In this document: in pieces, positions 2,022-32,575 of the stretch | Numbering within the stretch: position 1 is the first letter of the stretch | How the letters are laid out: each line of letters opens with the position of its first letter | Source of the DNA: Bacillota bacterium | GTDB lineage: Bacteria > Bacillota > SHA-98 > UBA4971 | Length of the DNA stretch: 49,155 nucleotides | Reading direction: 5' to 3' | Assembly (NCBI GenBank): GCA_040752635.1 | Contig: JBFMGS010000008.1 | Span: 4,700 to 53,854 of the forward strand | Position numbers and translations under genes: made by a program | The notes under the pieces: model-generated | Database searches by the model: none | What the model saw: the letters and a program-made list of their open reading frames with translations, nothing else | What the model was told of the DNA's origin: nothing

Positions 2022-3245
2022 ATGAGATTGTACGTCATGGGCCGTAGAAAGGCTGCACTGTTTCTCCTGGTAACCATGGCTCTCGCATCTGCTGCTGCTT
2101 CAATGCTGGTCAGAACCGTCGGAGGGCCTCCCGTAGCACTTGACAGGCTGCTCATAACGCGCCTCAACATGATCTTTTCCGACCGCGCACAGGCAGTCGT
2201 GCAAGGAAACCCCGAACCCCTGGTTTCCCACTATGACCTGGAGTCAACGTATGGTCGCTGGGCGCTAGACCGCGAAGAACGCCGGATCAGGTACGTCCAG
2301 GCGTGGAGCAAGGCGCGACGGGTGCGGTTTATCGACTCCGCGGTTGAGATCCGGGTAGATTCCGCGGAGCTGAAGGGTGACTTTGCACGGCTCAGGTTGA
2401 GGCAGAGCGCGGACTTCGCCTATTTGTACGACGCGGACCCTGCGGCTAGGCCGGACCACTTTGGTATCGGCACACGTCACTTAGTCGAGCTCGTCCGAAA
2501 GGGTGAGACCTGGGTGATAAGACGCGATTGGTACACTGACCCGCTCGACGAGGACTCGATTATCGCCGACGTGAGGCCTGCTTTGGTGCCTGAAGGGGCC
2601 TTTCCCACAATCATCGACCGGAAGTATCCCCAGGAAGACACCCGCCTCCCAACAGGTACAAAGGCGTCGCCAGGCATGCCGAGCAACCCTCTCCAAGCGT
2701 CGCGGTACGACCGGGGGAACGCCGTGGCATACGCCAACGAGTATTGCGGATTGGCCTGGGGCTGCGGCAACAATCGCGAGTATAACTCGAAGTACAAAGA
2801 CTTCACCGGGCTTGGAGGTGATTGCACCAACTTCGTATCCCAGGTGCTGGGGGACACGGCAGGCGGCGGCCTTCTGATGGACTGGACGTGGCGCTACACG
2901 TATAAGGGGATAGGCGCGGGAGCGAGCCGCGCCTGGGCGCAGGCAGGAGCCCTTGCCGGCTACCTCATAGCCAGCGGACGAGCCATAAGAATGGCCCGGG
3001 GCACCTATGCAGATGTTGTGACCCCTTCCGAGAGATATCCTCACGGGGCTATCGGCGCACTCGATTTGGGAGACCTCATAGCTTACGAGGAAAAGGGGCG
3101 CTTGGTACACTTTGCAGTGGTGACGGGCACCGACTCGCACGGGTACGTAGTGGTAAACTCGCATACTGCAGATCGTTACCACGTACCGTGGGACATCGGC
3201 TGGGACCGCACTACAGTGTTCTGGCTACTAAAGATCGTTTACTAG
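2022..3245 (+). CDS. Putative amidase domain (Amidase_6) protein with N-terminal membrane anchor
   Basis: YDRGNAVAYANEY...YNSKYKDF...GGDCTNFVSQVL, HFAVVTG and VNSHTADR motifs; GGAGGAG RBS; hydrophobic N-terminus. Confidence 0.8.
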   Translation: MRLYVMGRRKAALFLLVTMALASAAASMLVRTVGGPPVALDRLLITRLNMIFSDRAQAVVQGNPEPLVSHYDLESTYGRWALDREERRIRYVQAWSKARRVRFIDSAVEIRVDSAELKGDFARLRLRQSADFAYLYDADPAARPDHFGIGTRHLVELVRKGETWVIRRDWYTDPLDEDSIIADVRPALVPEGAFPTIIDRKYPQEDTRLPTGTKASPGMPSNPLQASRYDRGNAVAYANEYCGLAWGCGNNREYNSKYKDFTGLGGDCTNFVSQVLGDTAGGGLLMDWTWRYTYKGIGAGASRAWAQAGALAGYLIASGRAIRMARGTYADVVTPSERYPHGAIGALDLGDLIAYEEKGRLVHFAVVTGTDSHGYVVVNSHTADRYHVPWDIGWDRTTVFWLLKIVY

Positions 3246-4921
3246 GAAATTGAAGACTTGCCATGGAAGAGTTTCCATCCGTCGAACCCCCCGGCAAGGT
3301 GGACTACATCTTCGAATCCTCGCTGCTTCAGGATTTCATAGCCGAGATACGAGCGATATCCGATAGCACAGTAGACTACCGTTTTCTTATGTGGATCCAG
3401 CTCGTCCACGAAATCCCTCAACTGATCTATGGGTATCAACTTGGCTCCTGGGATCTCTCCCGCCTTGCGCTCCCCTGGTGTTCTCACGTCGATGAGTTGG
3501 ACGTCTTCGCGCTTCAGCAGCTCGTCGAGGTCTTCCGGTTCAATTGCGCCCACCTCGCCCCGGAAAACGTTCGCGGCCACAAACCCTGCGATGTTTACGG
3601 GGTCTTTAGCGGATGAGTAAGGCGGCGCGTATGCAAGGTCAAGGTCTTCGAGGTCTTCCACAGTCATCCGGGCGTGCATGGCGGTGGCGATTACGTCTAT
3701 CCTCTTATCAACCCCTGCACCTCCAACTATTTGTGCGCCGAGCACTCTGCCGGTGGACTTATCGACCACGAGTTTAACCGTCATCATGCGGGCACCCGGG
3801 TAATAACCCGCATGGTGCTGGGAATGAGTATATGAAACATAGTGGGGGATGCCTTCCGCGGCGGCCTCCTTTTCAGCAAGCCCGGTTTTTGCAATGGTTA
3901 GATCGCAAACTTTGACAATCATCGTGCCGAGCGACCCCAAGTAGCGCAGGTTGCCGCCCGCGGCATTCGCTCCGGCAACTCGCGCCTGTTTGTTGGCGGG
4001 GCCAGCAAGCGGGACTCGCACGGGCTTTCCGGTGACGATGTGCCTGACCTCGCAGATGTCTCCGGCCGCATATATGTTGGAATCGCTTGTCTGCATCCTT
4101 TCGTTTACGGCAAGCCCGCCCGATGGGCCAATAGAGAGTCCCGCCTGCCTGGCAAGGTCCAGCCTTGGGACCACACCCATGGCGGAGACTGCGAAGTCGC
4201 ATAGGATCGTTCTGCCGCCGGAAAGCCTCACACCGAGCTTGTCGCCGTTTTCTTCGACTTGCTCTACCCTTCGACCTAGCACTACCTCTGCACCCTTTTC
4301 ACGCAGGTGCAACACGAGGGGCTCGGCCATTTCCTTGTCAACCGGCGGAAGCAGGTGGTCCATCATTTCGATGACGCTTACCGATATGTTTCGTTCGAGC
4401 AGGGCTTCTGCGGTCTCGAGGCCGATGAACCCTCCGCCGATAACCGCCGCTGAACCCGGCTTGCGTTCGTCGATAAATTGATGCAGCCTGTCAGCGTCTT
4501 CTACTGAGACAAGAGTGAATACCTTATTGTTATCAATGCCTGGTATCGGGGGACGTGCAGGCTCGCTACCCGTGGCGAGAATAAGCGCATCGTAGCGTTC
4601 GTCCCGAACCTCCCCTGTTTCTAGATTGCGGACGGAGATAGTCTTGCGTGGCCTATTGATGGTAGTAACCTCGTGACGCGTCCGCACATCTATGTTGAAC
4701 CTGGACGCAAGCCGCCCAGGGCTCACGACAAAAAGCTCCTCGCGTCGTGGTATGACGCCGCCTATGTAGTAAGGTAAGCCGCAGTTAGCCCAGGAGACAT
4801 ACGGGGTGCGTTCGAAGATGACTATTTCCGCATCCTCGGACGTCCGGCGTGCTTTGACTGCGGCCCCTGCTCCACCGGCCACCCCTCCTACCACAACAAG
4901 GCGCTTCCCCAACGCTCTCAA
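3242..4921 (-). CDS. CoA-disulfide reductase / NADH oxidase with C-terminal rhodanese domain
   Basis: GGVAGG FAD motif, SWANCGLPYY redox Cys, GGGFIGLE NAD motif, LDLAYAPPY, and a rhodanese domain (IDVRT, VYCAIGYRS). Confidence 0.92.
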   Translation of the reverse strand: MRALGKRLVVVGGVAGGAGAAVKARRTSEDAEIVIFERTPYVSWANCGLPYYIGGVIPRREELFVVSPGRLASRFNIDVRTRHEVTTINRPRKTISVRNLETGEVRDERYDALILATGSEPARPPIPGIDNNKVFTLVSVEDADRLHQFIDERKPGSAAVIGGGFIGLETAEALLERNISVSVIEMMDHLLPPVDKEMAEPLVLHLREKGAEVVLGRRVEQVEENGDKLGVRLSGGRTILCDFAVSAMGVVPRLDLARQAGLSIGPSGGLAVNERMQTSDSNIYAAGDICEVRHIVTGKPVRVPLAGPANKQARVAGANAAGGNLRYLGSLGTMIVKVCDLTIAKTGLAEKEAAAEGIPHYVSYTHSQHHAGYYPGARMMTVKLVVDKSTGRVLGAQIVGGAGVDKRIDVIATAMHARMTVEDLEDLDLAYAPPYSSAKDPVNIAGFVAANVFRGEVGAIEPEDLDELLKREDVQLIDVRTPGERKAGEIPGAKLIPIDQLRDFVDELDPHKKTVVYCAIGYRSYLGYEILKQRGFEDVVHLAGGFDGWKLFHGKSSIS

Positions 4922-10288: not shown

Positions 10289-11980
10289 CTACTGCCCTTT
10301 AACTATCGCCACGCTGGCGCTGGCGCCGATCCTGGAGGCCCCCGCCTCGATCATTTTGCGGGCGGATTCCAGGTCTCTGATACCTCCGGAGGCCTTCACA
10401 CCCATGTCGGCGCCGACTACTTTTCGCATTAACCTCACATCGTCAACAGTAGCCCCGCCCGGGCCGAAGCCTGTCGAGGTCTTAACGAAGTCAGCACCGG
10501 CAATTTTTGCCAGCAAACATGCCTTCACTTTTTCCTCATCTGTCAAAAGTGCAGTCTCGAGAATTACCTTTACAAGAGCCCTGCCGCGCGCCGCTTCCAC
10601 TACAGCTTCGATGTCCCGCTTAACAAGGTCGTAGTCGCCCGACTTGAGCGCACCGACGTTGATAACCATGTCTACTTCATCAGCCCCGTTGGCTATGGCG
10701 TCCCGGGTTTCTATGGCCTTGGCGGTTGGCGTCGTGGCTCCCAGCGGGAAACCTATCACCGTGCAGACCTTGACCGGCGTGCCTTTGAGAAGGCTGGAAG
10801 CCAGACTCACATGCGTGGGGTTAACACACACTGACGCGAAGCCGTATTGTTTTGCCTCCTCACACAGCTTAACGACTTGGTCCTTCGTAGCATCTGGCTT
10901 GAGAAGCGTGTGATCTATCATGGCCCCCACGTCGCGAGCGACAGCGCCCACGCCGGGCGCAGCGCCGATCCTGGAAGCGCCCGCCTCGACTATCTTGCTT
11001 GTCCCAACGGGGTTCTCCTGGATACACTTTCCGCACCCGGAACACTCACCGAACAATCTCGAACACGCGGAATCGACAGCGTCGGCTCCAGTCCCAGCCG
11101 CGCCGGGACCAAGGGCATCTTGGCCGGCTCTTGCGTTCGTAGCAGGGCTCTGTACCTCGGCCGGTCTCTCCGACACGCCTCTCGGCGCGAACCCCATCAC
11201 GCGGAGGCCACGCTCGATCTCGTGCGCGAGGCTCTCTGCCTCAACCAGGATTATGCCGTATTCACGTAGTTTCTTGAGGTATTCGTCCGCCTGCCTGCGC
11301 AACGAGAAGGCGTGACGCCGTTGCTGGGTCGGTCCCCCGGTAGCTGGAGCGTGTTGCGGGCCGGAAGCCCCAACGAGGCCGGTAGAGTCCGGCAGCACGA
11401 AGTCGGTGGCGGCATACACTCTCTTCCCCTCCAGGACCGCCCCTAAGATCGCCTTCGTAACCGCGTCGTCCCCGGTGAGCAACGCAACTCTGGCCGCGAC
11501 GTGCAAGGGGAGCACCGGGACCACCACTATGTCAGCACATGAAACTGCAATGGCGGCATCGTCATCGCCCAAGAGCGAAACCTGGCCCAGTGCCTCAGTG
11601 ACGGCATTCTCGCCGCCTGTAGCCCTCGCTTCCTTCGAGAGCAGGCACGCAACGGACACGCCCGGACTGCGGAGTTCGCTCGCCTGTCCCAGCGCACTCA
11701 GAAGCGCTGCTCCCCCTTCTGCCACTACCACCAGCACGCGCCCCGCGCACGTTGAGGCAGGCGCCGCGGAAGCAAGCGACACGGAGGCAGACGACACTCT
11801 TGCAACCTTCTCGTCCATCTTGCCTGCGGGTTTGCTCGAAGGCGTGTCTCCAGGGCCGGCGACCCCGAGTCGAGGCGCCGTTTGACCCCCAGGTATTGCG
11901 CCGCGACTCTTCATGTCGGCTATGACTCCGTCGGTGATTCTCTCTATCAATTCGTCAATGTTCATAGGACGCCGCCGCAT
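10289..11980 (-). CDS. deoC: Fusion: encapsulation peptide + flavoprotein-like domain + Cys4 module + deoxyribose-phosphate aldolase
   Basis: The C-terminal ~220 aa are DeoC ([38 protein letters not shown]). The middle resembles BMC-associated flavoproteins (ADIVVVPVL...[12 protein letters not shown]...[10 protein letters not shown]). Start at ATG 11980 or 11965 (AGGTGG RBS) rather than 12085. Confidence 0.85.
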
Positions 11981-12020
11981 CCCGTCCCGTCCACCTGACT
12001 CGAGAACGAGGAGATGAGGC

Positions 12021-12308
12021 CTACCTCCTTTCACCTTGCCGGCTTGCGTGGATGGCATCGACGACCCCGACGATGGCGGAATCAACAGGCGCCTCGTTGT
12101 TGCCCATGGCCTGCCTTGCAGAGTTGCCCTCGCTCACTACGAGGACGATATCCCCCGGGCCGGCATCCTGAGAGTCGATTGCCAGGATCTCCTGGCCGTA
12201 ATCATTACCGTCGAGGTCCAAAGGCTGGACCAGCAGCATCTTGGACCCGACAAAACTCTTATTCTTCTGGGTCGCGACGACCGACCCAACCACCCTGCCG
12301 ATTACCAC
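12021..12308 (-). CDS. BMC-P shell vertex protein (EutN/CcmL) #1
   Basis: [13 protein letters not shown]...[15 protein letters not shown]...GNSAR...[11 protein letters not shown]. Start GTG 12308 (ORF track over-extends to 12419). Confidence 0.92.
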
Positions 12309-12363
12309 AGCCCCACCCCGATCACAAAGCGCATAAGGCGACAGTCTGTTTCCCGTGCATAGT

Positions 12364-12678
12364 CTATTTCCCGTGCACCGCAGCAGGACCCGCCCTATCG
12401 GATGGCTCCACGTGCACATGGTCCACTATTCCAACAATGGCTACATCGACGGGGGCCCCTGCCCTCGGGAGAGGAAAGGATGCTTCCCGGCCTTTCACAG
12501 CGTGTACAATCTCCCCCGCCCCCGCCCCGACGGTGTCAACCGCGATGAGCGGCTTGCCGCAAGGGGTGCCGTCGCGCTTCAGCGGCTCAACCACAAGTAG
12601 CTTCACGCCTTCGAGTTTTTCGTCTTTTCGCGTAGCGACTATTTTGCCCACTACCCTCGCGATAAACAGGGCGCTCAC
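12364..12678 (-). CDS. BMC-P (EutN/CcmL) #2
   Basis: FIARVVGKIVATRKDEKLEG...AVDTVGAGAGE...PVDVAIVGIVD. Confidence 0.92.
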   Translation of the reverse strand: MSALFIARVVGKIVATRKDEKLEGVKLLVVEPLKRDGTPCGKPLIAVDTVGAGAGEIVHAVKGREASFPLPRAGAPVDVAIVGIVDHVHVEPSDRAGPAAVHGK

Positions 12679-12724
12679 CCTCCGATGTCAAGCAAAAGCT
12701 CGCTCGCCACAGTCAAGGAGACGC

Positions 12725-13183
12725 TCACTCGCCTCTTGAGAGGAACCTTCTCTCGATCTCCATTATCTTGTTCACGCGGCGCAGGTGCCTTCCCCCGGCG
12801 AATTCCGTGGCAAGCCACACCTTCACGATCTCCCTGGCCACACCCTTGCCTACCACCCTGTCGCCCAGCGCCAGGACGTTTGCGTCGTTGTGCTCGCGGC
12901 TGTTCCTGGCCGTATATATGTCCTGGCAGGCGGCGCATCTCACCCCGGGCACCTTGTTTGCTGCCATAGCCGACCCGACCCCCGCGCCGTCCACAATGAT
13001 GCCGCGGTCGAAAAGGCCCCTCGCGACAGCTTCGGCCACAAGAAAGGCAAAGTCAGGATAGTCCACCGGGTCCCTGCTGTGCGTGCCGTAATCCACGCAC
13101 TCATAGCCGAGCTCTCCGAGGTAAGCCTTGATATCTTCCTTCAGTTCAAACCCACCATGGTCGCTGCCGATCACTACTTTCAT
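12725..13183 (-). CDS. rpiB: Ribose-5-phosphate isomerase B family protein
   Basis: GSDHGG, DYPD, AANKVPGVR, SREHNDANVLALG and GGRHLRRV motifs. Confidence 0.92.
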   Translation of the reverse strand: MKVVIGSDHGGFELKEDIKAYLGELGYECVDYGTHSRDPVDYPDFAFLVAEAVARGLFDRGIIVDGAGVGSAMAANKVPGVRCAACQDIYTARNSREHNDANVLALGDRVVGKGVAREIVKVWLATEFAGGRHLRRVNKIMEIERRFLSRGE

Positions 13184-14559
13184 CGTCTGCCCCTCCCGGC
13201 AACGATCGTGATTGCCTCACCAACCTGGGAAACGACACCGGAAATACTCGCATGAACCCTCGCCCCGATTCTACCTTCCGGGATGTCGGCAACAAGGTCG
13301 CCCTCCATCACCTCGTCACCCGGGCGAACGCACGGCACGGCCGGGGCGCCAACGTGCTGGAGCAGCGGGATGTCCACTCTATCAGGGATGAAGAGTTCTA
13401 TTCCAGGAGCATGATGCCCTACGTAGGGAGCAATTCCTGCGCGCATTGTCAGCCTCGATGAAGGTACACGCCTTGACCCCCTCATGGGGTGCGCCAGAAT
13501 ATCGCTGTTATGGTAGGGGTTCTTGACATCTTTTCCCGCCATCGACTGCTTGAGAGCCTGGTTCACTCGAACTGGTGCGAGTCCTGCAGGACAGCCGACG
13601 ATTGCACAAACGCCGCACTCTGAGCAAAGCCAGGCGCTGGTGATTACTTCGGGCGGGGCTCCCGGGCCCATGCTCATTGCACGCATGATGAGATGCGGAG
13701 ATATTCTATGGCCCAAGAGGTGCCGGGGGCATGTTTCGGTGCAGCTCATGCACTGGCAACACGCGGCTCTCGCCCGCTTCAAGATGACTTTGACTTCATC
13801 CTCGCGCATCCTGACGAGCAGGTGGTCGGCAGGCAGCACGATGATCCCGGCGGTGAGCTTCGTTATGACGCCTGATGCGTTCGGCGCCAGCTTGCCCATG
13901 GCCGGCCCGCCCATGATGATTCTGTATCGTTCCACCACAGGCCCGCCTGCAATCTCGATGGCAGCCGCAACCGAAGTGCCTATCGGAAACCGCGCGGTCA
14001 GAGGCCTTGCCACTGCCCCGGCCACTGTGACCAATCGAGAGGTCACCGGGCGCCCTTCCACGGCATTTGCGACGTTTGCCAGGGTGGCCACGTTGCTGAC
14101 GACCACTCCTGCTTCTAGCGGCAAACCCCCTTCAGGTACGTACCTCCCGGTCACCTCGTGCACAAGTACGTGCTCATCCCCTATAGGATAAACGTCATCA
14201 AGCTCGAAGACATCGATGCCGTTCTCGCGCGAGACCGTTTCCCTTATGGCCTGTAGCACCTTGTCGTGCTTTCTTTTGATGGCAACGAAGCCGTGCCGCG
14301 CCCCTGTGGCTTTCATGGCGGCTCGGAGGCCTGCAACGACTTTTGCAGGCTCGAGAAGCATTACTGCCTGGTCGGCGGTTAGCAGGGGTTCGCACTCGGC
14401 GCCGTTTGCGATAACAGTATCCACAGCCGTCGAGAGTTTGACATGCGTCGGAAACCCCGCCCCGCCAGAACCCACGACGCCCGCGTTTCGGATGGCCGCA
14501 ATTATGTCCGCTGGTGCCATCGCCGGCATCTTTACACCACCCAGGAAGCTCGCGCTCAA
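13180..14559 (-). CDS. PduS-like (RnfC/NuoF-related) flavin/Fe-S oxidoreductase
   Basis: GAGFPTHVKL, NGAECEPLL, an SLBB region, and two ferredoxin motifs (CCQCMSCTETCP, CSECGVCAIVGCP). Confidence 0.88.
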   Translation of the reverse strand: MSASFLGGVKMPAMAPADIIAAIRNAGVVGSGGAGFPTHVKLSTAVDTVIANGAECEPLLTADQAVMLLEPAKVVAGLRAAMKATGARHGFVAIKRKHDKVLQAIRETVSRENGIDVFELDDVYPIGDEHVLVHEVTGRYVPEGGLPLEAGVVVSNVATLANVANAVEGRPVTSRLVTVAGAVARPLTARFPIGTSVAAAIEIAGGPVVERYRIIMGGPAMGKLAPNASGVITKLTAGIIVLPADHLLVRMREDEVKVILKRARAACCQCMSCTETCPRHLLGHRISPHLIMRAMSMGPGAPPEVITSAWLCSECGVCAIVGCPAGLAPVRVNQALKQSMAGKDVKNPYHNSDILAHPMRGSRRVPSSRLTMRAGIAPYVGHHAPGIELFIPDRVDIPLLQHVGAPAVPCVRPGDEVMEGDLVADIPEGRIGARVHASISGVVSQVGEAITIVAGRGRR

Positions 14560-14563
14560 TGCC

Positions 14564-14857
14564 TCAACCTTTCCGGTAGACTACTCTGCCTTCCATCTCG
14601 ATGGAGTCCACGATCCCCATAATGACCGCATCTACAGGCGTGTTTTGCGTCTTGGACGTCTGGCGCGCGGAGCTTCCGCTCACCACGAGCACTATCTCCC
14701 CTTCGCCCGCGCCCACTGTATCGATGGCTACGAGGGGCTTCCCATCGGGGGACTGGTCCACTAGAGAGATCGGCTGCACGACCTGGAGCTTTGAGCCCAC
14801 CAGCTTGTCATCCTTTCTGGTGCATACCACCGTGCCCACGACCTTGCAGGCAATCAA
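14564..14857 (-). CDS. BMC-P (EutN/CcmL) #3
   Basis: IACKVVGTVVCTRKD...AIDTVGAGEGE...GSSAR...PVDAVIMGIVD; TTG start with GGAGG RBS. Confidence 0.92.
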   Translation of the reverse strand: MIACKVVGTVVCTRKDDKLVGSKLQVVQPISLVDQSPDGKPLVAIDTVGAGEGEIVLVVSGSSARQTSKTQNTPVDAVIMGIVDSIEMEGRVVYRKG

Positions 14858-15182
14858 TGGGATCCCCCTCCTCCCTGAACGATACTGACCGGTAACGCCC
14901 TCCCCTCCCTGAGGTGAGCGGCATCATCACTTGCAACGATAATCTGTTCCTAAAGGTTGAACCGGTTCTTCAGGACACGAACCCTGACACCTTTACGCAT
15001 CGACACAGGATCCTCCCCGAAGCGCGGCAGCGGCACGGCTGGAGCCATGAGTTCCGCGGCCGCGCCGACCTTTCGTCGCCGACTTCTCGCCGGCGCCCTG
15101 GCACCAGGAGCGTCAGCTTTTTCCAACACTTAGCACCCTGCTCTTTCCGAGAAGACATTCGGGGAGGTCGCCCCTCGCGGTA

Positions 15183-15485
15183 TTACCCTTTCTCCTTCTT
15201 CATTTCTGGCAGGGTGATAGGCAGCTTGCCCTCGAGGTCGAAATGCGGCCTCGGGATCACATGCACCGATACGACTTCGCCGATCTTCGCGGCCGCCGCG
15301 GCCCCGGCGTCGCACGCAGACTTGCACGCCGCCACCTCGCCTCTCACCAGGACGGTGACGTAGCCGCCGCCGATCTTCTCCCAGCCCACGAGCCTCACGT
15401 TTGCTGCCTTGACCATAGCGTCCGCAGCCTCTATCATCGCAACGAGTCCCTTGGTCTCAATCATTCCCAGCGCTTCCATGGCCAT
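15183..15485 (-). CDS. BMC-H shell hexamer (PduA/EutM-like)
   Basis: [26 protein letters not shown]...RGEVAACK...HVIPRPH. Confidence 0.95.
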
Positions 15486-15910
15486 TTGGGTTCACCCCCT
15501 TTCGCTACCGCAACTGCGTAACCTAAACGGACTAATACCGTGGCTATCACACTAACCAGGACGTCGCGGTCCGGGTCCGGCCCGAGCCTTGCGACGGCGG
15601 CGCGCGCTATTCTCGCCATAAGCTCATCCAGCGGAATCCCCGTCTGAAGGCGCTCTCGGCAGGGCAAAGCGCCCTCCGTGCGAACTCCGGAATGCACAGT
15701 GGCCCGGCCCGGTGCCGCGGTCGCCGCGCCGTGGGTCGCCACGACCGACCCGGCGTTGTCCCGACCCTGCTTGTTTATCTCCACGAGGTCTATCCCGTGT
15801 TCCGCAGCGTAATCTCTGGCAGCGGGCGTCACGATCGCACCGCGCGGCACCACAATCTCACACCCTGCCGGAAAGTTCCTCAGTTCCGCCTCGGTGATAA
15901 CCGCTCGCAC
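15461..15910 (-). CDS. BMC-associated hypothetical protein with C-terminal encapsulation-like helices
   Basis: N-terminal VITEAELR...[24 protein letters not shown], a low-complexity linker, then [16 protein letters not shown] and [15 protein letters not shown]. Start GTG 15910 with GGAGGT RBS. Confidence 0.7.
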
Positions 15911-15982
15911 CGGAATACCTCCCGCCTCCTGCATGGCAAACCGTGGAGGATCGCCTTCACCGCCGCACCCGCATGACGGTGC

Positions 15983-16531
15983 TCACAGTAACATCCCAAC
16001 AAGCTCCTTTGCGGGCGAAGGAATCACCACGCGCCCGACGAGCAGGCCTTTCGCACCGGCGTCAGCGCTTCCCGCAGCGATGGCCGCCTGCACCGCACCC
16101 ACCTCTCCGGTGAGAGTCACAAAGCACTTGCCGCCCAGCCCGATGGCAAGGCGCAGTTCGATGGCGTCAACCGCCGCAGCCTTCAGGGCGGCGTCCGCGG
16201 CCACGATCGCTGACGCTACCGTGAAGGTCTCGATGACGCCAAGCGCCTTGACCTCTTTTACGTCGGACGTAGCTGTTATCGCCGGAAACACCCCCGGGTG
16301 CACGTTGGGTAGGATAAACTCGTCCACGACAGCGTCCGCCGCTACCGCCAGGCCTGCAGCAACCGAACTCTTCACGGCGCCTACATCCCCTGATACCAGG
16401 GTCGTATACTTCCCGGGGCAGGTGGGGCGCGCAAGAAGAAGCTCAACGTCAGCAGCCTTGACCATGGCGTCGGTTGCTTCTATTCCCCTCGTTATATTAG
16501 CGAACTCCACGAGACCTATCGCTATACCCAC
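15983..16531 (-). CDS. BMC-T single-layer trimer, PduT-like
   Basis: Two BMC domains; RPTCPGKY carries the pore Cys that binds an Fe-S cluster in PduT. Confidence 0.9.
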   Translation of the reverse strand: MGIAIGLVEFANITRGIEATDAMVKAADVELLLARPTCPGKYTTLVSGDVGAVKSSVAAGLAVAADAVVDEFILPNVHPGVFPAITATSDVKEVKALGVIETFTVASAIVAADAALKAAAVDAIELRLAIGLGGKCFVTLTGEVGAVQAAIAAGSADAGAKGLLVGRVVIPSPAKELVGMLL

Positions 16532-16753
16532 GAGGACTGTCCCCCTCGCACCAGTCTAGAACCGCAAGTCCCGAACTCGTATCTGGTCTCAGAGCCGGGC
16601 ACCGTCGTCCTGGCCGTTGAACACGAGGATGATTGCCCCTTGCGCCATTTCTTACCCGCCGCACCCGGAAAGCACACCGCCAGGCCCGGCCTGCATGTAC
16701 GCAGGCTTCAAAACCCACCGTGCCCCGTGCCGCTAGCTGCTACGAGCAGTCGC

Positions 16754-17560
16754 TCATCTACGGGTCCCGGTGCTCCCGACGACCTCCACCAGATCGCCGT
16801 TTCTCAGGAGCGCCGCGTTGGCTTCATCCGTATCCACGTGCATCTCAAGACGAAAGCTCTTGTCCACCCTCACAAGGACTCGCCCGAACACGAGTCCCCG
16901 ATCCCCCGGGACCTCCACCTCGACGCGGTCCTTATCCCGCAGCCCCCATCGGCTGGCTTCCTCAGGCGTCATGTGGATGTGGCGGACCGCAATGATCGCA
17001 CCCTCTTTCAGGCTGACCAGCCCGCGGGGCCCCACGATTGCTATGGGCGCGGACCCGTCGAGGTCCCCGGAATCCCGTACAGGGGGCGAAATGCCGAGCG
17101 TGTACGCATCGGTCCGGCTCACTTCGACCTGCGTCCGGGCGCGTAGGGGCCCGAGCACCCTCACCGAGGGTATGCTCCCCTTGGGGCCTACAAGGGACAC
17201 GACCTCGTTTGCCACAAACTGCCCGGGTTGTGACAGATCGCGCAGCCTGGACAGGCCCATGCGTGCGGCCTCCGCCCCGAACAGCGCGGCGAAATCCTTC
17301 TCGCAGAGGTGCACGTGGCGATTAGAGACCCCGACAGGTATCACGAGCCTCCCCGCCTGGTCCTTGCTGGCGCCTCGTCCGTCGCCCGCGCCTCGCCCAT
17401 CTCGCCCAGCAGCCGCGCTTCCATCAGGCGACAGCGCCGCCGGGCCGGGCGGATCAGGGATCATGACGCCATGTGGATCAGGAACCACGAGGCCGTTTGC
17501 TTCCAGGTCCCTTATGCATCTAGCAATTAGCTCATCGAGCGATCCAGTGCCCATACTCAC
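16754..17560 (-). CDS. pduL: PduL-type phosphotransacylase with N-terminal encapsulation peptide
   Basis: VGVSNRHVHL, VRVLGP...QVEVSRTD, RHIHM and EMHVDTDEANAA motifs; N-terminal SLDELIARCIRDLEA. Confidence 0.93.
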   Translation of the reverse strand: MSMGTGSLDELIARCIRDLEANGLVVPDPHGVMIPDPPGPAALSPDGSAAAGRDGRGAGDGRGASKDQAGRLVIPVGVSNRHVHLCEKDFAALFGAEAARMGLSRLRDLSQPGQFVANEVVSLVGPKGSIPSVRVLGPLRARTQVEVSRTDAYTLGISPPVRDSGDLDGSAPIAIVGPRGLVSLKEGAIIAVRHIHMTPEEASRWGLRDKDRVEVEVPGDRGLVFGRVLVRVDKSFRLEMHVDTDEANAALLRNGDLVEVVGSTGTRR

Positions 17561-17563
17561 CTG

Positions 17564-17842
17564 CTACGGCTTCGGCAGAATTCTGTCAACGTCCGTATGT
17601 GGCCTGGGGATCACATGCACGCTTACAAGCTCGCCAACTCTCGCAGCAGCAGCGGCGCCTGCATCAGTCGCGGCTTTCACCGCTCCGACATCGCCTCGGA
17701 CCATGACGGTCACATAACCGCCACCTATGTACTCCTTACCGATGAGCACCACGTTCGCTGCCTTGACCATCGCATCTGCGGCCTCGATAGCTCCCACAAG
17801 GCCTTTCGTCTCGACCATTCCCAGTGCGTCCTGAACCATCAA
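17564..17842 (-). CDS. BMC-H shell hexamer (EutM/PduA-like)
   Basis: [26 protein letters not shown]...[14 protein letters not shown]...HVIPRPH. Likely start is ATG 17839. Confidence 0.95.
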
Positions 17843-17960
17843 CCCCGCCCCCTAACGTTATCATCAACACCGTCATTCCCGACTGGTCGTGTCACTGCTG
17901 CCGGACTATACCCGCGCTGCCGGAGTATACCTGCTATGCTGCGCTTTATTGAGTTCTGCG

Positions 17961-19700
17961 CTACTTCGTGTCGTCGCCCCGGCTCAGCTCCGAAAGGAAC
18001 CTGTCCACAACAGCCCGTATCTCTTCGTCTGAAACGATCCTCGTTTGACTGCCTCGCAAGCCCGCGCTGCGGTGCTGAGCGGTCCCCGAGCCGCCTCTGC
18101 CGTCCCTCACCGTGGGTTGACCGGACACAAGCTCAGCGTGCTCCTGGGACTGCACAACGCCTTGCCTGCTCTTGGCTCCGGCTGCAGGCGGTATCGTGAC
18201 GGGCCGGTCAACGGCCGCCGCCGGGCCGACGATGGACGGCACAGGCCTGGGCCCGGAAGGTTGAATCGAGGATTGACTCGCCCTCCAGCTTGCTCCGACT
18301 CGGCGACCTTCGATCCCTTCTTCGTATAGCCCGCGGACATCCTCTGACGTCAGGTCATACGCTACACGCTTCACGTTCACAAGGTGCATCGGCCCCACGT
18401 TATCGGCGGTGATGCTGCCGCCCCAGGTGCCGCACCCGAGGGTCAGAGCGGGCTCGAGTCCCGTAGTCGCACCGATAGCGCCCTGGGAAGACGGGGTGTT
18501 GACGAGGATCCGGAACACGGGCTTCTTCAAGGCAAACTCCCTGATAACAGCCTCATTCCGCGAGTGGATGACAAGGCTGTGGCCGATGCCTCCGAATTTC
18601 AGGATCTCGATGCAGCGCTCGCAGGCTGCCTGCCAGTCAGGCTCGACGTAGAATGCCAGGATTGGGCTGAGCTTCTCCTTTGAAAGCGGGTACTGCGGTC
18701 CAACCCCGGCAAGACGCGCGATGAGGACCCGCGTGCCTTCCGGCACCGTGATTCCAGCCAGCCTGGCAATGGTCGCGGCGCTTCTGCCCACTATGGACGG
18801 GTTGATGTTCCCGGCAGGCTGCACCACGACCCTGGCGAGCGCGGCCGCCTCTGCATCGGTCAGGAAATACCCTCCTTGCGCTCTGACTTCTTCGACAACC
18901 TGGTTCTCAATGACTGACTCAGTCACTATCGCCTGTTCTGACGCACAGATCGTGCCGTTGTCAAAAGTTTTGCTTGCGAAGATGTCCGACACAGCCTTCT
19001 TTATGTCAGCCGTACGCTCTATGAACGCCGGGACGTTCCCCGGTCCGACCCCATAAGCAGGCTTGCCTGCGCTGTAGGCCGCCTTCACCATGGCCGACCC
19101 GCCCGTCGCCAAAATGAGCGCGGTCTCAGGATGGTGCATGAGCTCGTCGGTGGCCTGCTTTGTGGGGTGAATAATGCACTGGATAGCTCCCTTCGGAGCC
19201 CCCGCGGCGCACGCAGCGTCGGCCATGACCTGCGCGGCCTGGCAACTGCACTTGCACGCAGCCGGGTGAGGGCTAAATACAATTGGGTTGCGGGCCTTCA
19301 TGCTGATGAGGCTCTTGTATATCACCGTCGATGTCGGATTCGTAGACGGCACGAGCGCAATGATAACCCCCATCGGCTCTGCTATCTCTGCAATCCTGCG
19401 GGACGGGTCGCGCCGTATGATGCCCACGGTCTTGAGGTCGCGGATGGCTTCGTACACCCGCTCCGAGGCGAAGAGGTTCTTCGTGATCTTGTCCTCGTAT
19501 ACGCCAAAGCCGGTTTCGTCGGCGGCCATCTTTGCCAGCGCACGGGCGTTTGCCCGCCCGGCTTCGGCCATGCTCTTCACAATGCGGTCCACCTGCTCTT
19601 GCGTGAGCGAGGCCAGCTTCGCGCGAGAATCCGCAGCGCGCCTCATTGCTTCCCGAGCTTCTTGAATCGACATCAAGTCCGCATCAACAGCCATCCGCAT
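17961..19700 (-). CDS. CoA-acylating aldehyde dehydrogenase with C-terminal encapsulation peptide
   Basis: [39 protein letters not shown] and TLGCG motifs; a long linker, then [16 protein letters not shown]. Confidence 0.93.
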
Positions 19701-30012: not shown

Positions 30013-31080
30013 CTACGGCTGTTGTGGCAGGAACAACACCTTCCCATGCACCATGTGCCGGTTCCATATCTCGTCAAACGCCTGCGGGACTTGTGAAATA
30101 GGTAATCGATGGGTTATGAACGGTTCAGCCACCAGTTTACCCTGGCCCATGAAGTGGAGGGTCGTCCTCCAATCGTCCTGGTGCGGCACCGTCACATCGC
30201 CGGAGTTCCACGAACCTATCACAGAAATCTCGCGCCGCATCACCCTGTCCACAGCAACCTCTGAAAGATCAAGACCCGCATGGGATATACCGCAGAAGAC
30301 CACCGACCCCAGTTTCGAAGCAATAAGGCAGCCCTGGCGTTGGGTCTGTGGAACTCCCGCGGTTTCGATCACGCGGTTGATCCCCACGCCGCCGGTCATC
30401 TCATCGACAACTTCGATGGGATCCGCTACCCGGGCATTGATACATGCATCGGCTCCCAGACGTCGCGCGATCTCTAGCTTCTCGTCGTAGATGTCTACTG
30501 CCACTACCATGACGGCGCCAGCAATTCTTGCCCACTGAACAGTGAAAAGCCCAATCGGACCCGTTCCTAAAACCGCGACAGTATCCCCAACGGTGACCCC
30601 CGCCTTCCTGATAGAATGAAGGGCGACAGCGGCAGGGTCAGTCGTAGCAGCAGTCTCAAAATCGAGACCCTCGGGAAGCCCGAGAACATTCTCAGCTCGG
30701 GTCTTGACATATTCCGCAAATGCCCCGTCCGTCCTGGAGCCGATATAGTCGTAGTGATCGCAAAGGTTATACTGTCCGCTCTTACAATAAACGCATGAGC
30801 CACATGGGATCAGCGGAATGGCGGTGACGCGCTCCCCGGGTCTTACAGTTTTGACGTCGGGACCTATATCTACAACCTCTCCCGCAAACTCGTGCCCGAT
30901 AGTGATAGGGTACGAATAGGCTCCGGTAGCCATAGCCCGGGACGGATCTGAACCGCATATCCCTGCCGCCGCTACCTTAATGAGCACTTCGTTCTCCCCG
31001 ACTTCCGGGACCGGGACGCGTTCGATACGAATATCACCAGGAGCATACAACCGCGCTGCCAGCATGGTCTTTGGGATCAA
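30013..31080 (-). CDS. Zn-dependent polyol(-phosphate) dehydrogenase (GatD/sorbitol DH-like)
   Basis: GICGSD, GHEFAG, structural-Zn CGSCVYC...C and GTGPIG motifs. Start TTG 31080 with AAGGAGG RBS (ORF track over-extends to 31392). Confidence 0.9.
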   Translation of the reverse strand: MIPKTMLAARLYAPGDIRIERVPVPEVGENEVLIKVAAAGICGSDPSRAMATGAYSYPITIGHEFAGEVVDIGPDVKTVRPGERVTAIPLIPCGSCVYCKSGQYNLCDHYDYIGSRTDGAFAEYVKTRAENVLGLPEGLDFETAATTDPAAVALHSIRKAGVTVGDTVAVLGTGPIGLFTVQWARIAGAVMVVAVDIYDEKLEIARRLGADACINARVADPIEVVDEMTGGVGINRVIETAGVPQTQRQGCLIASKLGSVVFCGISHAGLDLSEVAVDRVMRREISVIGSWNSGDVTVPHQDDWRTTLHFMGQGKLVAEPFITHRLPISQVPQAFDEIWNRHMVHGKVLFLPQQP

Positions 31081-31193
31081 CGTTTCGCCCTCCTTGCTCG
31101 CACGGCGTCTACACGGATGTTCATCACAGGGGCGGCGCACGAGCAATTCGCGGTCACTGTCGGGCCGCGACCAAAAGCCATCCCTTGCGTGTA

Positions 31194-31226
31194 GAACAAA
31201 TGTGCAATACCTATGGACATATGTGC
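31194..31226. promoter_or_regulatory. Tandem palindromic operator next to a TATACT -10
   Basis: GAACAAATGTGC (31194-31205) and GGACATATGTGC (31215-31226), immediately downstream on the minus strand of a TATACT hexamer. Confidence 0.6.
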
Positions 31227-31525
31227 TGAGTATACTATTCTCTGCCGTAGGGGAAAATCCTTCTTCAGTGTCACAAGAATTCTCATGGTAGATCTTGGTG
31301 GCGGACCTACCGATTCTGGGCAGATTGACAGGCGTACTGACGCGGGCCTGGTAGCAGTGGGGTCCTATCTGCGGCTGTCTTGTTCGCTGCACGGCAGCCC
31401 CTGGAAGCCTGACAGGCCAAGGTCGTTGCGGCTTCGCAGTTGCGCGGGTTTCTCATAAGTCTCTTCCGTCCCATCCAGGGCTGTGGAGGTAAGGGTCGGT
31501 GAATCCCGGGGAGAAACAAGAATCC

Positions 31526-32575
31526 TCACATACTGACGATGACTTTCATCCCCCTTCTCTCTGCCACTACGAGAAGGCCCTCCTCAAGCCTATCCAGCGG
31601 CAACACGTGGCTTATGAGGCTTCTGACGTTGATCTGGCCCCTTTCGAGAAGCCTCATCGCAAGGTTGAAATGCCCGTGGTTGAAATCATGGCTGCCCGTG
31701 AGCTCAATCTGCTTGTAGTGAATGACGTTGAGATCCACGTCAAGGCGACCCTCGGGATAAAGACCGGCGAAGATGTTTACGGTCCCACACGGGGCGACGA
31801 CGCCTAGGGCCCAGGCAACCGCTCCGGTTGAACTCGCCGCAACTATAACTTTGTCGGGGCCATTACCTCCTGTCATTTCCCGGACCCGTCTCACCGCTGT
31901 TTCATAGCCTGGGGACTCGCCGGGCTCCAGACAAACTATCCTTTCGATACCGAGTGCACGCGCAACCTCCAGCCTTCCAGCGCTGAGGTCACAGATGGCC
32001 ACCCTCGCACCTCTAACGCGAGCAAGCTGAGCGTGTAGCAGGCCGATGGGGCCTGCGCCAACTACGAGGACATCGTCCCCGACCGAAATCCCGCTTCTCT
32101 CCTGCCCATTTATGCAACACGCAAGCGGCTCTGCAAAGACGGCTTCCTCATACGACATAGAGGGCGGAATAACCCAGAGACTCGTTAGAGGCGCCTTACC
32201 ATATTCCGCGAACCCGCCGACGACGCGCGCACGGTTGTCTCTTACACAGTAATTCGGCAGCCCTCGACGGCAGAATTCGCACTGGTTGCACGAAGCCAGC
32301 CAACATGCTGCCACCCGGGTTCCCGGGCGAATTTGCGACGGCGCCGTTCCTACAACTTCCACTACCTCGCCGACCCACTCATGTCCGGGGAGAAACGGCA
32401 ACTTGGCTTCAGGTATGCGTGCTTGCCCGGTGTATAGCCGAACGTCGCTTGGACAGATCCCGCACGCAGCAACTCGTATGAGAGCCTCCCCGGGGCCCGG
32501 TTTTGGCAACGGCACGCGCTCAACGCGCAACTGGCGCGGACCGTGCAACATTGCAGCCCGCATGTGATCCTTCAT
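31526..32575 (-). CDS. Zn-dependent polyol dehydrogenase (MDR family)
   Basis: CGICPSD, GHEWVG, CNQCEFC...C and GAGPIG motifs. Confidence 0.9.
   Translation of the reverse strand: MKDHMRAAMLHGPRQLRVERVPLPKPGPGEALIRVAACGICPSDVRLYTGQARIPEAKLPFLPGHEWVGEVVEVVGTAPSQIRPGTRVAACWLASCNQCEFCRRGLPNYCVRDNRARVVGGFAEYGKAPLTSLWVIPPSMSYEEAVFAEPLACCINGQERSGISVGDDVLVVGAGPIGLLHAQLARVRGARVAICDLSAGRLEVARALGIERIVCLEPGESPGYETAVRRVREMTGGNGPDKVIVAASSTGAVAWALGVVAPCGTVNIFAGLYPEGRLDVDLNVIHYKQIELTGSHDFNHGHFNLAMRLLERGQINVRSLISHVLPLDRLEEGLLVVAERRGMKVIVSM

What the first reader, a model, noticed from the sequence alone, without database searches (positions are those of the whole stretch)
13180..19700. No alcohol dehydrogenase or acetate kinase: PduS-PduT may export electrons
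Seen: the locus has an NADH-producing AldDH but no Fe-ADH or B12 enzyme. It retains PduS (flavin plus two ferredoxin motifs), PduT with its pore Cys, and the flavoprotein fused to DeoC. Established: canonical metabolosomes recycle NADH with an internal ADH, and PduS is described as a cobalamin reductase that binds PduT. Inference: a flavoprotein/PduS/PduT wire reoxidises lumenal NADH across the shell.
Basis: inference. Interest (0 to 1): 0.6.

Follow-up and report, generated by a model that had tools for sequence, protein, structure and literature searches.

The report
Known NADH-recycling pair in microcompartment operon
This operon builds a protein organelle that splits deoxyribose phosphate. 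It has no alcohol dehydrogenase and instead carries the PduS/PduT-type pair that a 2024 paper showed can oxidise NADH and pass the electrons into the shell, so it is an ordinary new example of a known device.

Summary
Window 10289-19700 (minus strand) is one SPU-type (sugar-phosphate-utilising) microcompartment operon. It encodes an acetylating aldehyde dehydrogenase, PduL, two BMC-H, three BMC-P, a PduT-like BMC-T with the pore motif TCPGK, a PduS-like Fe-S flavoprotein, RpiB, and a deoxyribose-phosphate aldolase (DERA) with a long N-terminal extension. The operon has no Fe-ADH, acetate kinase or B12 enzyme.

Acetate kinase and Fe-ADHs are encoded elsewhere in the genome. None of the alcohol dehydrogenases carries an encapsulation-peptide extension, but the assembly is only 87% complete.

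Sutter et al. 2024 (PMC11626177) renamed PduS/PduT homologues MNdh/BMC-T^SE, counted 361 ADH-less loci, listed SPU among the types, and showed NADH oxidation and Fe-S reduction in vitro. Dwyer et al. 2024 say the same for SPU.

This locus meets the sequence criteria. All FMN and Fe-S residues are invariant in seven syntenic, ADH-less relatives. A complex model places the PduS ferredoxin domain on Cys38 of all three PduT copies (score 0.85, best control 0.00).

The "flavoprotein" on DERA is real at fold level (PF02441-like). It has lost that family's T-x-N-T motif and is probably lumenal, so a role in the wire is unsupported.

This scan has reached the same reading in at least 35 other genomes.

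The parts
17961..19700 (-). Acetylating acetaldehyde dehydrogenase, the NADH producer. It has a ~125-aa C-terminal extension ending in an amphipathic, encapsulation-peptide-like helix (..[18 protein letters not shown]..).
   Evidence: PF00171 and TIGR02518 at 681.6 bits against a cut-off of 620.1. Catalytic Cys in NGTICASEQ. The encapsulation-peptide reading is inferred from sequence alone.
17564..17842 (-). BMC-H shell protein
   Evidence: PF00936, E 4e-29
16754..17560 (-). PduL-type phosphotransacylase with an N-terminal encapsulation-type helix (SLDELIARCIRDLE)
   Evidence: PF06130, E 2e-73. A regex derived from this operon's PduL and DERA helices matches only those two proteins in the genome.
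15983..16531 (-). PduT-like tandem-domain shell trimer (BMC-T^SE type). The pore Cys38 lies in PTCPGKY (codons 16406-16426).
   Evidence: Two PF00936 domains. Matches 3nwg, 3pac and 3n79, with the Cys aligned. TCPGK is invariant in 8 of 8 sequences (the window plus seven relatives), which are 79-90% identical.
15461..15934 (-). Conserved 157-aa protein of no family. Its N-terminal motif is shared with the C-terminus of TIGR02536 proteins. An encapsulation-peptide-like helix follows ([15 protein letters not shown]). It is probably an assembly or scaffold factor, not a redox protein.
   Evidence: Weak TIGR02536 match to model positions 162-205 and a weak E3_binding match. Present at the same position in 7 relatives. 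The stand-alone flavoproteins carry the same tail, with weak PduM and EutQ hits there.
15183..15485 (-). BMC-H shell protein
   Evidence: PF00936, E 5e-30
14564..14857 (-). BMC-P vertex protein
   Evidence: PF03319, E 6e-32
13180..14559 (-). PduS/MNdh-type NADH dehydrogenase. FMN/NADH site GSGGAGFPT (within 14440-14478). Fe-S motif 1, CCQCMSCTETCP (within 13723-13764). Fe-S motif 2, CSECGVCAIVGCP (within 13585-13629). The RnfC_N barrel is at the C-terminus. The true start may be the ATG 10 codons downstream.
   Evidence: PF01512, PF10531, PF13534 and PF13375 in the permuted order. Alignment to RnfC 7zc6_C. All motif residues are invariant in 8 of 8 sequences (the window plus seven relatives).
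12725..13183 (-). RpiB-type isomerase with Asp at the catalytic Cys position (GIIVDGAGVG), as reported for all SPU RpiB
   Evidence: PF02502, E 2e-57. Sequence. Statement in PMC11585597.
12021..12678 (-). Two BMC-P vertex proteins (12364-12678 and about 12021-12305). With 14564-14857 they make up the SPU-typical triplet.
   Evidence: PF03319. Matches to relatives begin at residue 1-2.
10289..11965 (-). DERA, the signature enzyme. It carries an N-terminal encapsulation helix (11900-11965), a degenerate PF02441-fold domain (aa 75-260, 11186-11743), a four-cysteine motif C-x6-C-x2-C-x2-C..NP (within 10946-11071), and the aldolase barrel.
   Evidence: TIGR00126 at 299.6 bits. AlphaFold2 pLDDT of 85-95 for aa 75-260. 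Foldseek matches to UbiX, CoaC and EpiD-like proteins, E 1e-6. Alignments.

Best explanation
The operon builds an SPU metabolosome.

Inside the shell, DERA splits deoxyribose 5-phosphate into glyceraldehyde 3-phosphate and acetaldehyde. The aldehyde dehydrogenase converts acetaldehyde, CoA and NAD+ into acetyl-CoA and NADH. PduL recycles CoA and releases acetyl-phosphate, which the cytosolic acetate kinase can use.

NAD+ is regenerated by the PduS homologue (MNdh) rather than by an alcohol dehydrogenase. NADH reduces its FMN. The electrons then pass through its two [4Fe-4S] clusters to the single cluster held by the three Cys38 residues of the PduT-like trimer (BMC-T^SE), and from there to an unidentified cytosolic acceptor.

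Basis of each step:
- Shown here: gene content, motifs, conservation, and a supportive complex model.
- Shown by others on the Clostridium botulinum pair: NADH oxidation, and an EPR signal assigned to the shell protein's reduced Fe-S cluster.
- Inferred: that this copy does the same, the direction of flow in vivo, and the acceptor.
For: - Domain order matches MNdh: PF01512, SLBB, Fer4 dicluster, then a C-terminal RnfC_N.
- The FMN motif and both Cys motifs align to RnfC 7zc6.
- PduT Cys38 in CPGK aligns to solved PduT structures.
- An AldDH is present and no ADH lies in the operon.
- The same 13-gene operon without an ADH occurs in 7 relatives. PduT is 79-90% identical and PduS 62-76% identical, with every cofactor residue invariant.
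- Complex model of PduS 12-459 with three PduT copies: ipSAE 0.85/0.80/0.85 against a best control of 0.00. The tool's calibration counts are 58 of 80 solved complexes and 2 of 110 mismatched pairs reaching the mark, and they hold only roughly here. Partner pLDDT is at least 88. Run agreement was reported only as 'at least 1% of contacts'.
- The interface is PduS 264-276, 322-326 and 357-378 against PduT 38-41 of all three copies. It therefore covers C267, C270 and residues flanking C323. By the usual ferredoxin pattern these, with C273, ligate one cluster, which would sit over the pore.
- The sequence search of the PDB with PduS returned only RnfC chains, so a pass from memory of a solved PduS-PduT complex is unlikely.
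- Published model and in-vitro data: PMC11626177. Stated for SPU in PMC11585597.
- No EP-bearing ADH was found in the genome.
- This is the only BMC locus in the assembly.
Against: - No experiment exists on this protein pair or on any SPU microcompartment's cofactor recycling.
- The in-vivo acceptor is unknown even for the characterised pair. Oxygen was the only acceptor shown in vitro.
- No PF00258 flavodoxin or rubredoxin was found in this assembly.
- pduS and pduT are separated by three genes here, whereas 97% of published pairs are adjacent.
- The assembly is 87% complete, so an encapsulated reductase encoded elsewhere cannot be excluded.
- The complex model does not say which face of the trimer is bound. 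The published modelling was itself split between the two faces.
Confidence: 0.8

Rival explanations
1. The DERA-fused flavoprotein-fold domain and its four-cysteine motif form a working lumenal redox module. It would exchange electrons with PduS/PduT, either as part of the wire or as a redox sensor that gates the aldolase. This would add to the main explanation rather than replace it.
For: - PF02441 fold with high model confidence.
- The four cysteines are present in all 12 close homologues.
- CxxCxxC occurs in 21 of 23 DERA-fused forms but in only 4 of 139 other relatives.
- The motif matches the ferredoxin C-x2-C-x2-C-x3-(C)-P pattern, with Asn at the last Cys position.
- The fused module sits in PduS/PduT-bearing SPU loci, including a distant one, L018. 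The SPU6 DERA, from the subtype without PduS, has only a ~70-aa extension (PMC11585597).
- PMC11626177 suggests that PF02441 proteins in MNdh operons may accept electrons.
Against: - There is no Pfam match to PF02441, even at E<10.
- The T-x-N-T segment is kept in 88 of the 102 stand-alone relatives in which the motif could be located. In this clade it reads P/S-x-H-V/I/L in 10 of 10.
- The domain follows an encapsulation-type helix, so it should be inside, where it is no sink for electrons.
- The aldolase reaction needs no redox chemistry.
- The co-occurrence with PduS is confounded by shared ancestry.
Confidence: 0.1
2. NAD+ is regenerated by a reductase that the operon does not encode. This could be an alcohol dehydrogenase or other NADH-consuming enzyme recruited without a recognisable encapsulation peptide, or one encoded in the unassembled 13% of the genome.
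For: - The genome has Fe-ADH-family genes on C30, C75 and C13, and eight Zn-type dehydrogenases.
- The assembly is 87% complete.
- Some SPU2, SPU4 and SPU6 loci do encode an AlcDH (PMC11585597).
Against: - None of the candidates inspected has an N- or C-terminal extension with an encapsulation-type helix.
- The C30 Fe-ADH sits in an unrelated cluster with AOR, RraA and Ldh_2 genes.
- Seven relatives keep the same ADH-less operon.
- A regex for this operon's PduL/DERA-type helix hits nothing else in the genome. It also misses the AldDH helix, so it is a narrow test.
Confidence: 0.06
3. NAD+/NADH simply exchange with the cytosol through shell pores. PduS/PduT would then have another role, such as cobalamin reduction, cluster repair or oxygen scavenging.
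For: - PMC11626177 itself allows for low-throughput cofactor exchange and for oxygen reduction.
- PduS was first described as a cobalamin reductase.
Against: - No B12-dependent signature enzyme is in the locus, and no EutB was found in the assembly. The diol-dehydratase search also found nothing, but its positive control failed, so it is uninformative.
- The locus has no double-layer BMC-T with a large gated pore.
- The strict conservation of every redox residue next to an AldDH fits NADH oxidation.
Confidence: 0.04

Closest known systems
MNdh / BMC-T^SE cofactor-recycling module (PduS/PduT homologues; Sutter et al. 2024, PNAS, PMC11626177; characterised with the Clostridium botulinum GRM1 pair)
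   Same: - Same four domains in the same permuted order.
- FMN site and two [4Fe-4S] motifs.
- A tandem BMC-T with the CPGK pore cysteine.
- Co-occurrence with AldDH and absence of AlcDH, which makes this locus one of the class of 361 such loci.
- A modelled contact between the ferredoxin domain and the pore.
   Different: - The two genes are three genes apart rather than adjacent.
- The second Fe-S motif has four rather than three residues before the final Cys-Pro.
- The host is an uncultured spore-forming Bacillota member with an SPU locus.
- Nothing here has been tested biochemically.
SPU (sugar-phosphate-utilising) microcompartments (Axen 2014, PMC4207490; Sutter 2021, PMC8217296; Dwyer 2024, PMC11585597)
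   Same: - DERA, plus an RpiB with Asp at the catalytic Cys position.
- AldDH, PTAC, a BMC-P triplet, BMC-T^s and PduS.
- No BMC-T^dp, as in subtypes SPU1, SPU4 and SPU7.
- NAD+ recycling by MNdh is explicitly proposed for SPU.
   Different: - The AldDH extension is C-terminal here. The paper reports N-terminal extensions for all subtypes but SPU6.
- RpiB has no extension here.
- DERA carries ~340 extra residues, made of a PF02441-fold domain plus a Cys4 motif. The paper describes only a helix and two strands.
Salmonella/Citrobacter PduS-PduT of the 1,2-propanediol microcompartment
   Same: Homologous proteins. PduT Cys38 aligns (3n79, 3pac).
   Different: The Pdu system also has the alcohol dehydrogenase PduQ and a B12-dependent diol dehydratase. 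Neither is present here.
RnfC subunit of the Rnf complex (7zc6, 9eri, 8ahx)
   Same: Best solved relative of the PduS-like protein, at E 2e-62. The FMN and Fe-S residues align.
   Different: RnfC has the barrel domain at the N-terminus and sits in a membrane complex. The genome has its own canonical RnfC on contig C3.
Stand-alone BMC-associated PF02441 flavoproteins, related to TIGR02536 eut_hyp, found in EUT2, GRM and other loci
   Same: The DERA N-terminal domain is their homologue. A profile built from it finds 632 cluster representatives. All nine stand-alone ~260-aa proteins sampled pass the PF02441 cut-off.
   Different: Here the domain is fused to DERA. It has lost the T-x-N-T segment and has swapped the PduM-like tail for a Cys4 motif. 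That tail motif appears instead on the separate 157-aa protein.

Membership tests
MNdh (PduS-type metabolosome NADH dehydrogenase) | Four domains in the order PF01512, PF10531, 4Fe-4S dicluster, PF13375, with the RnfC_N barrel circularly permuted to the C-terminus | tested here: met
   Residues 23-164, 177-222, 266-327 and 387-449. The C-terminal 370-448 aligns to RnfC 4-85.
MNdh (PduS-type metabolosome NADH dehydrogenase) | FMN/NADH site and two ferredoxin-type Cys motifs retained | tested here: met
   GSGGAGFPT, CCQCMSCTETCP and CSECGVCAIVGCP align to RnfC. They are invariant in 8 of 8 sequences (the window plus seven relatives).
MNdh (PduS-type metabolosome NADH dehydrogenase) | Occurs in a BMC locus together with an acylating AldDH | tested here: met
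   An AldDH lies 3.4 kb upstream in the same operon.
MNdh (PduS-type metabolosome NADH dehydrogenase) | Gene immediately adjacent to the BMC-T^SE gene (97% of loci; 1.8% two genes away) | tested here: not met
   Three genes lie between them (the 157-aa protein, a BMC-H and a BMC-P). The same order holds in 7 relatives. The genes share a strand and an operon, so this is a statistical trait rather than a functional criterion.
MNdh (PduS-type metabolosome NADH dehydrogenase) | Binds BMC-T^SE so that the Fe-S clusters line up | tested here: met
   This is model support only: ipSAE 0.85 against a best control of 0.00. The interface is PduS 264-276 and 322-326 with PduT 38-41 of all three copies. 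Which face is bound was not determined.
MNdh (PduS-type metabolosome NADH dehydrogenase) | NADH oxidation with reduction of the shell protein's cluster | not testable with these tools
   Needs anaerobic purification, activity assays and EPR, as in PMC11626177.
BMC-T^SE (PduT-type electron-transfer shell trimer) | Single-layer tandem of two PF00936 domains | tested here: met
   182 aa with two BMC domains. Best PDB matches are 3nwg, 3pac and 3n79.
BMC-T^SE (PduT-type electron-transfer shell trimer) | CP(G/S)K Fe-S-binding motif at the pore | tested here: met
   TCPGK at residues 37-41, aligned to PduT ICPGK. Invariant in 8 of 8 sequences (the window plus seven relatives).
SPU microcompartment locus | DeoC-type aldolase (PF01791), RpiB (PF02502), AldDH and shell genes including a BMC-P triplet | tested here: met
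   RpiB has Asp at the catalytic Cys position, as in all SPU RpiB.
Canonical metabolosome with internal alcohol dehydrogenase | A PF00465 (or other) alcohol dehydrogenase in the locus, usually with an encapsulation peptide | tested here: not met
   None in the operon or in 7 syntenic relatives. The genomic ADHs lack extensions.
PF02441 flavoprotein (HFCD/UbiX fold), for the DERA N-terminal domain | Fold | tested here: met
   AlphaFold2 pLDDT of 85-95 for aa 75-260. Foldseek top hits are UbiX, CoaBC, HAL3 and cysteine decarboxylases, at E 1e-6 to 1e-4 and target-normalised TM-score of about 0.6.
PF02441 flavoprotein (HFCD/UbiX fold), for the DERA N-terminal domain | Matches the family profile | tested here: not met
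   No PF02441 hit at E<10. A profile against PDB sequences finds no HFCD protein. Homology is only transitive, through stand-alone BMC flavoproteins.
PF02441 flavoprotein (HFCD/UbiX fold), for the DERA N-terminal domain | Conserved P-x-x-(T/S)-x-N-(T/S)-x-A-K segment. That it is linked to flavin binding in this family is from my own knowledge of the PASANT motif and was not tested. | tested here: not met
   The segment reads [10 protein letters not shown] here, and P/S-x-H-V/I/L in 10 of 10 clade members. It is (T/S)-x-N-(T/S) in 88 of the 102 stand-alone relatives in which the motif could be located.

The most novel reading that the evidence does not exclude
The signature aldolase of this SPU clade carries a lumenal Fe-S site, and possibly a cofactor site, on a remodelled flavoprotein domain. 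This site would communicate with the PduS/PduT electron path. Aldehyde production would then be coupled to the redox state of the lumen: DERA would be throttled when NADH cannot be discharged. That would be a redox-gated signature enzyme, which the microcompartment papers I read do not describe.
Probability: 0.08. Interest if true: 0.6.

Novelty: new member of a known kind. Interest (0 to 1): 0.2.

Why it matters
The locus adds one more natural, ADH-less SPU microcompartment to the set that relies on the MNdh/BMC-T^SE route, with strong conservation and a confident interface model. That is useful as a data point but changes nothing in the field's picture.

Two questions remain open. The first, already open in the literature, is who takes the electrons outside the shell. 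This genome shows no classical flavodoxin or rubredoxin but does have Rnf and many NuoF-like paralogues. The second is what the conserved Cys4 motif on DERA does.

Tried and rejected
- **Direct Pfam and NCBIfam scan of the DERA extension:** nothing found.
- **Profile of the extension against PDB sequences:** no HFCD hit.
- **Supplementary tables of PMC11626177 and PMC11585597:** not held, so per-subtype counts could not be read.
- **Literature search for 'sugar phosphate utilization' with PduS:** no hits until it was reworded.
- **Search for an EP-tagged ADH:** four PF00465 matches and eight PF08240 matches were inspected and none has an extension.
  - The 459-aa frame at 30013-31392 is an over-called start. 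The upstream 110 residues look non-coding, and the likely start is at MLAARLYAPG.
  - The 647-aa frame on C140 is an artefact of a masked gap that joins an ADH to an FGGY kinase.
- **Regex built from this operon's PduL and DERA helices:** it found only those two proteins in the genome. It does not catch the AldDH C-terminal helix, so it is a narrow test.
- **Diol dehydratase search (PF02286):** no hit, but the control genomes did not match either, so that negative is uninformative.
- **Not attempted:**
  - Which face of PduT the model uses. The tool returns no coordinates.
  - A complex test of the DERA extension with PduS or PduT.
  - Expression data.

Full report
**What is there**

The window's minus strand between 10289 and 20811 carries one operon behind a SorC/DeoR-type regulator. 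In order of transcription it encodes:
- an acetylating aldehyde dehydrogenase, 17961-19700 (TIGR02518, 681 bits against a cut-off of 620);
- a BMC-H;
- a PduL phosphotransacylase;
- a 182-aa tandem BMC-T;
- a conserved 157-aa protein without a family;
- a second BMC-H;
- a BMC-P;
- a 459-aa PduS-like protein;
- an RpiB;
- two more BMC-P;
- a 558-aa deoxyribose-phosphate aldolase (TIGR00126).

This is the SPU (sugar-phosphate-utilising) locus type of Axen 2014, Sutter 2021 and Dwyer 2024. It is the only BMC locus in the assembly. The organism is an uncultured spore-forming Bacillota member. SASP genes sit in the window, and the nearest loci come from Bacillota and Clostridia MAGs.

**Checking the observation**

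The PduS-like protein has the Complex1_51K, SLBB, 4Fe-4S dicluster and RnfC_N domains, in that order.
- Its best solved relative is RnfC (7zc6, E 2e-62).
- The alignment shows the circular permutation, with the C-terminal residues 370-448 matching RnfC 4-85.
- The GSGGAGFPT site and both Cys motifs are matched.

The BMC-T is closest to 3nwg, 3pac and 3n79. Its Cys38 in TCPGK aligns with the cluster-binding Cys of PduT.

No Fe-ADH, acetate kinase, EutB or diol dehydratase is in the operon. The window's only dehydrogenases of the alcohol type are two Zn-dependent enzymes at 30013-32575. They sit in a cluster with a sugar kinase and an ABC transporter and have no extensions.

Genome-wide picture:
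- An acetate kinase exists, split over the ends of contigs C86 and C154.
- There are four PF00465 matches, three above the family cut-off, and eight Zn-type dehydrogenases.
- None has an N- or C-terminal extension with a targeting helix.
- The best Fe-ADH lies in an unrelated cluster with an aldehyde:ferredoxin oxidoreductase-like gene.
- The assembly is 87% complete, so absence is not proven.
- EutB was not found. The diol-dehydratase search had no working positive control.

Sutter et al. 2024 (PMC11626177) surveyed PduS homologues and found them in 2,172 BMC loci, many without B12 enzymes. SPU is among the types they list. They counted 361 loci that have AldDH and PduS/PduT but no alcohol dehydrogenase. 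They renamed the pair MNdh and BMC-T^SE, and proposed that NADH is oxidised inside and the electrons leave through the Fe-S pore.

With the Clostridium botulinum pair they showed:
- a stable complex containing FMN and Fe-S;
- NADH oxidation at a kcat of about 20 per second, with oxygen as acceptor;
- an EPR signal assigned to the shell protein's reduced Fe-S cluster after adding NADH;
- a downhill order of redox potentials.

Dwyer et al. 2024 (PMC11585597) report PduS in every SPU subtype but SPU6. The scan's earlier notes reached the same conclusion for at least 35 other genomes.

**Does this locus qualify?**

I tested the defining features.
- Domain order, cofactor residues, the CPGK motif and co-occurrence with AldDH are all met.
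- Adjacency is not met. Three genes separate pduT from pduS, whereas 97% of published pairs are adjacent.
- The same 13-gene order is kept in seven relatives, and none of them has an ADH.
- Across these relatives PduT is 79-90% identical with TCPGK invariant. PduS is 62-76% identical with the FMN motif and all eight motif cysteines invariant.

I modelled PduS residues 12-459 with three copies of PduT, using these alignments. The scores were ipSAE 0.85, 0.80 and 0.85, against 0.00 for the best of three controls.
- The tool's calibration counts are 58 of 80 solved complexes and 2 of 110 mismatched pairs reaching the mark. They hold only roughly here, because my own alignments and a 1+3 stoichiometry were used.
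- Partner pLDDT was at least 88.
- Run agreement was reported only as 'at least 1% of contacts'.
- The confident interface is PduS 264-276, 322-326 and 357-378 against PduT 38-41 of all three copies, plus 103, 133-135 and 158-166.
- The interface therefore covers C267, C270 and residues flanking C323. By the usual ferredoxin pattern these, with C273, ligate one cluster, and the model places them over the three pore cysteines.
- The sequence search of the PDB with PduS returned only RnfC chains, so a pass from memory of a solved PduS-PduT complex is unlikely.
- The model supports binding but does not show it. It does not tell which face of the trimer is used.

**The flavoprotein on DERA**

The aldolase starts at the ATG at 11965 with an amphipathic helix ([14 protein letters not shown]..). 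About 340 residues follow before the barrel. Neither Pfam nor NCBIfam recognises them.
- An AlphaFold2 model built from 12 homologues gives a confident alpha/beta domain for residues 75-260.
- Foldseek places that domain with UbiX, CoaC, HAL3 and the cysteine decarboxylases, which is the PF02441 fold (E about 1e-6, target-normalised TM-score about 0.6).
- A profile of the extension finds 632 cluster representatives. Most of the best 150 are stand-alone proteins of about 260 aa.
- All nine stand-alone proteins I sampled pass the PF02441 cut-off and match TIGR02536, the 'ethanolamine utilisation hypothetical'. Several also carry a PduM-like tail.

Two further points weigh against a working flavoprotein.
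- The family's conserved P-x-x-(T/S)-x-N-(T/S)-x-A-K segment is present in 88 of the 102 stand-alone relatives in which the motif could be located. Here it reads [10 protein letters not shown], and it is changed in all ten members of this clade.
- After the domain comes C-x6-C-x2-C-x2-C followed by ..NP. All four cysteines are present in all 12 close homologues. CxxCxxC occurs in 21 of 23 DERA-fused forms against 4 of 139 other relatives.

This looks like a single-cluster ferredoxin-type site, but nothing here shows that it binds metal. The module follows a targeting helix on the signature enzyme, so it should be lumenal and cannot serve as the outside acceptor. I found no evidence that it touches PduS or PduT and could not run a second complex job. 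I rate its participation in the wire at about one in ten.

PMC11626177 notes that PF02441 proteins occur in MNdh operons and might accept electrons, but that they also occur without MNdh.

**Where the electrons go**

This is unknown here, as it is in the literature. The assembly shows no PF00258 flavodoxin and no rubredoxin. It has a canonical RnfC and seven further NuoF-like paralogues, which fits a ferredoxin-based anaerobe. These are context only, not evidence for a particular acceptor.

**Verdict**

- The flavoprotein link is not supported.
- This is a new member of a known kind.
- The only loose end beyond the literature I could read is the conserved Cys4 and degenerate flavoprotein module on DERA. 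Another follow-up in this scan has already reported it, and I re-derived it independently.

Noticed in passing
window 15461-15934 (-): A 157-aa protein of no family sits directly after pduT and is conserved at that position in 7 relatives (32-51% identity). Its N-terminal motif (..[29 protein letters not shown]) is the C-terminal tail of TIGR02536-type stand-alone BMC flavoproteins, which resembles the PduM C-terminus and the EutQ N-terminus. An encapsulation-peptide-like helix follows ([15 protein letters not shown]). It looks like an assembly adaptor. The tail may have been separated from the flavoprotein domain when that domain fused to DERA.
   Followed up: partly
window 10946-11071 (-), DERA residues 299-340: The four-cysteine motif C-x6-C-x2-C-x2-C..NP is tied to DERA-fused forms of the flavoprotein-like domain (21 of 23, against 4 of 139 others). 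It is followed by [11 protein letters not shown], which nearly repeats the DERA C-terminal segment [11 protein letters not shown]. The SPU papers I could read do not describe it.
   Followed up: partly
window 17964-18068 (-): The AldDH extension with the targeting-type helix is C-terminal here. PMC11585597 reports C-terminal encapsulation peptides only for SPU6 and N-terminal ones for all other SPU subtypes.
   Followed up: no
window 12725-13183 (-): RpiB has Asp at the catalytic Cys position, as in all SPU RpiB. Unlike the SPU6 enzyme described in PMC11585597, it has no N-terminal extension. It may depend on DERA for encapsulation.
   Followed up: no
window 13180-16531 (-): pduT and pduS are separated by three genes, and this order is fixed in 7 relatives. 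In the published survey 97% of pairs are adjacent. In a more distant SPU locus (L018) they are adjacent.
   Followed up: yes
window 3242-4921 (-); L009 18593-20272: A CoA-disulfide-reductase-like flavoenzyme with a rhodanese domain lies a few kb downstream of the operon. It keeps that place in a relative, together with SASP, chromate-transporter and PHP genes. There is no evidence of a link to the microcompartment.
   Followed up: no
L018 10037-12528: A distant SPU locus with the fused DERA also encodes an FBPase_3 and a PF01676 'Metalloenzyme' protein, which may be a phosphopentomutase, directly downstream. This fits a deoxyribose-phosphate feed.
   Followed up: no
genome contigs C3, C92, C24, C1, C17, C141: There are eight Complex1_51K paralogues, including a canonical RnfC. 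No PF00258 flavodoxin or rubredoxin was found in the 87%-complete assembly.
   Followed up: partly
genome contig C140 767-2707: An apparent 647-aa fusion of a Zn-dehydrogenase and an FGGY kinase is an artefact of a masked gap. It is a second polyol-type dehydrogenase and kinase pair.
   Followed up: yes
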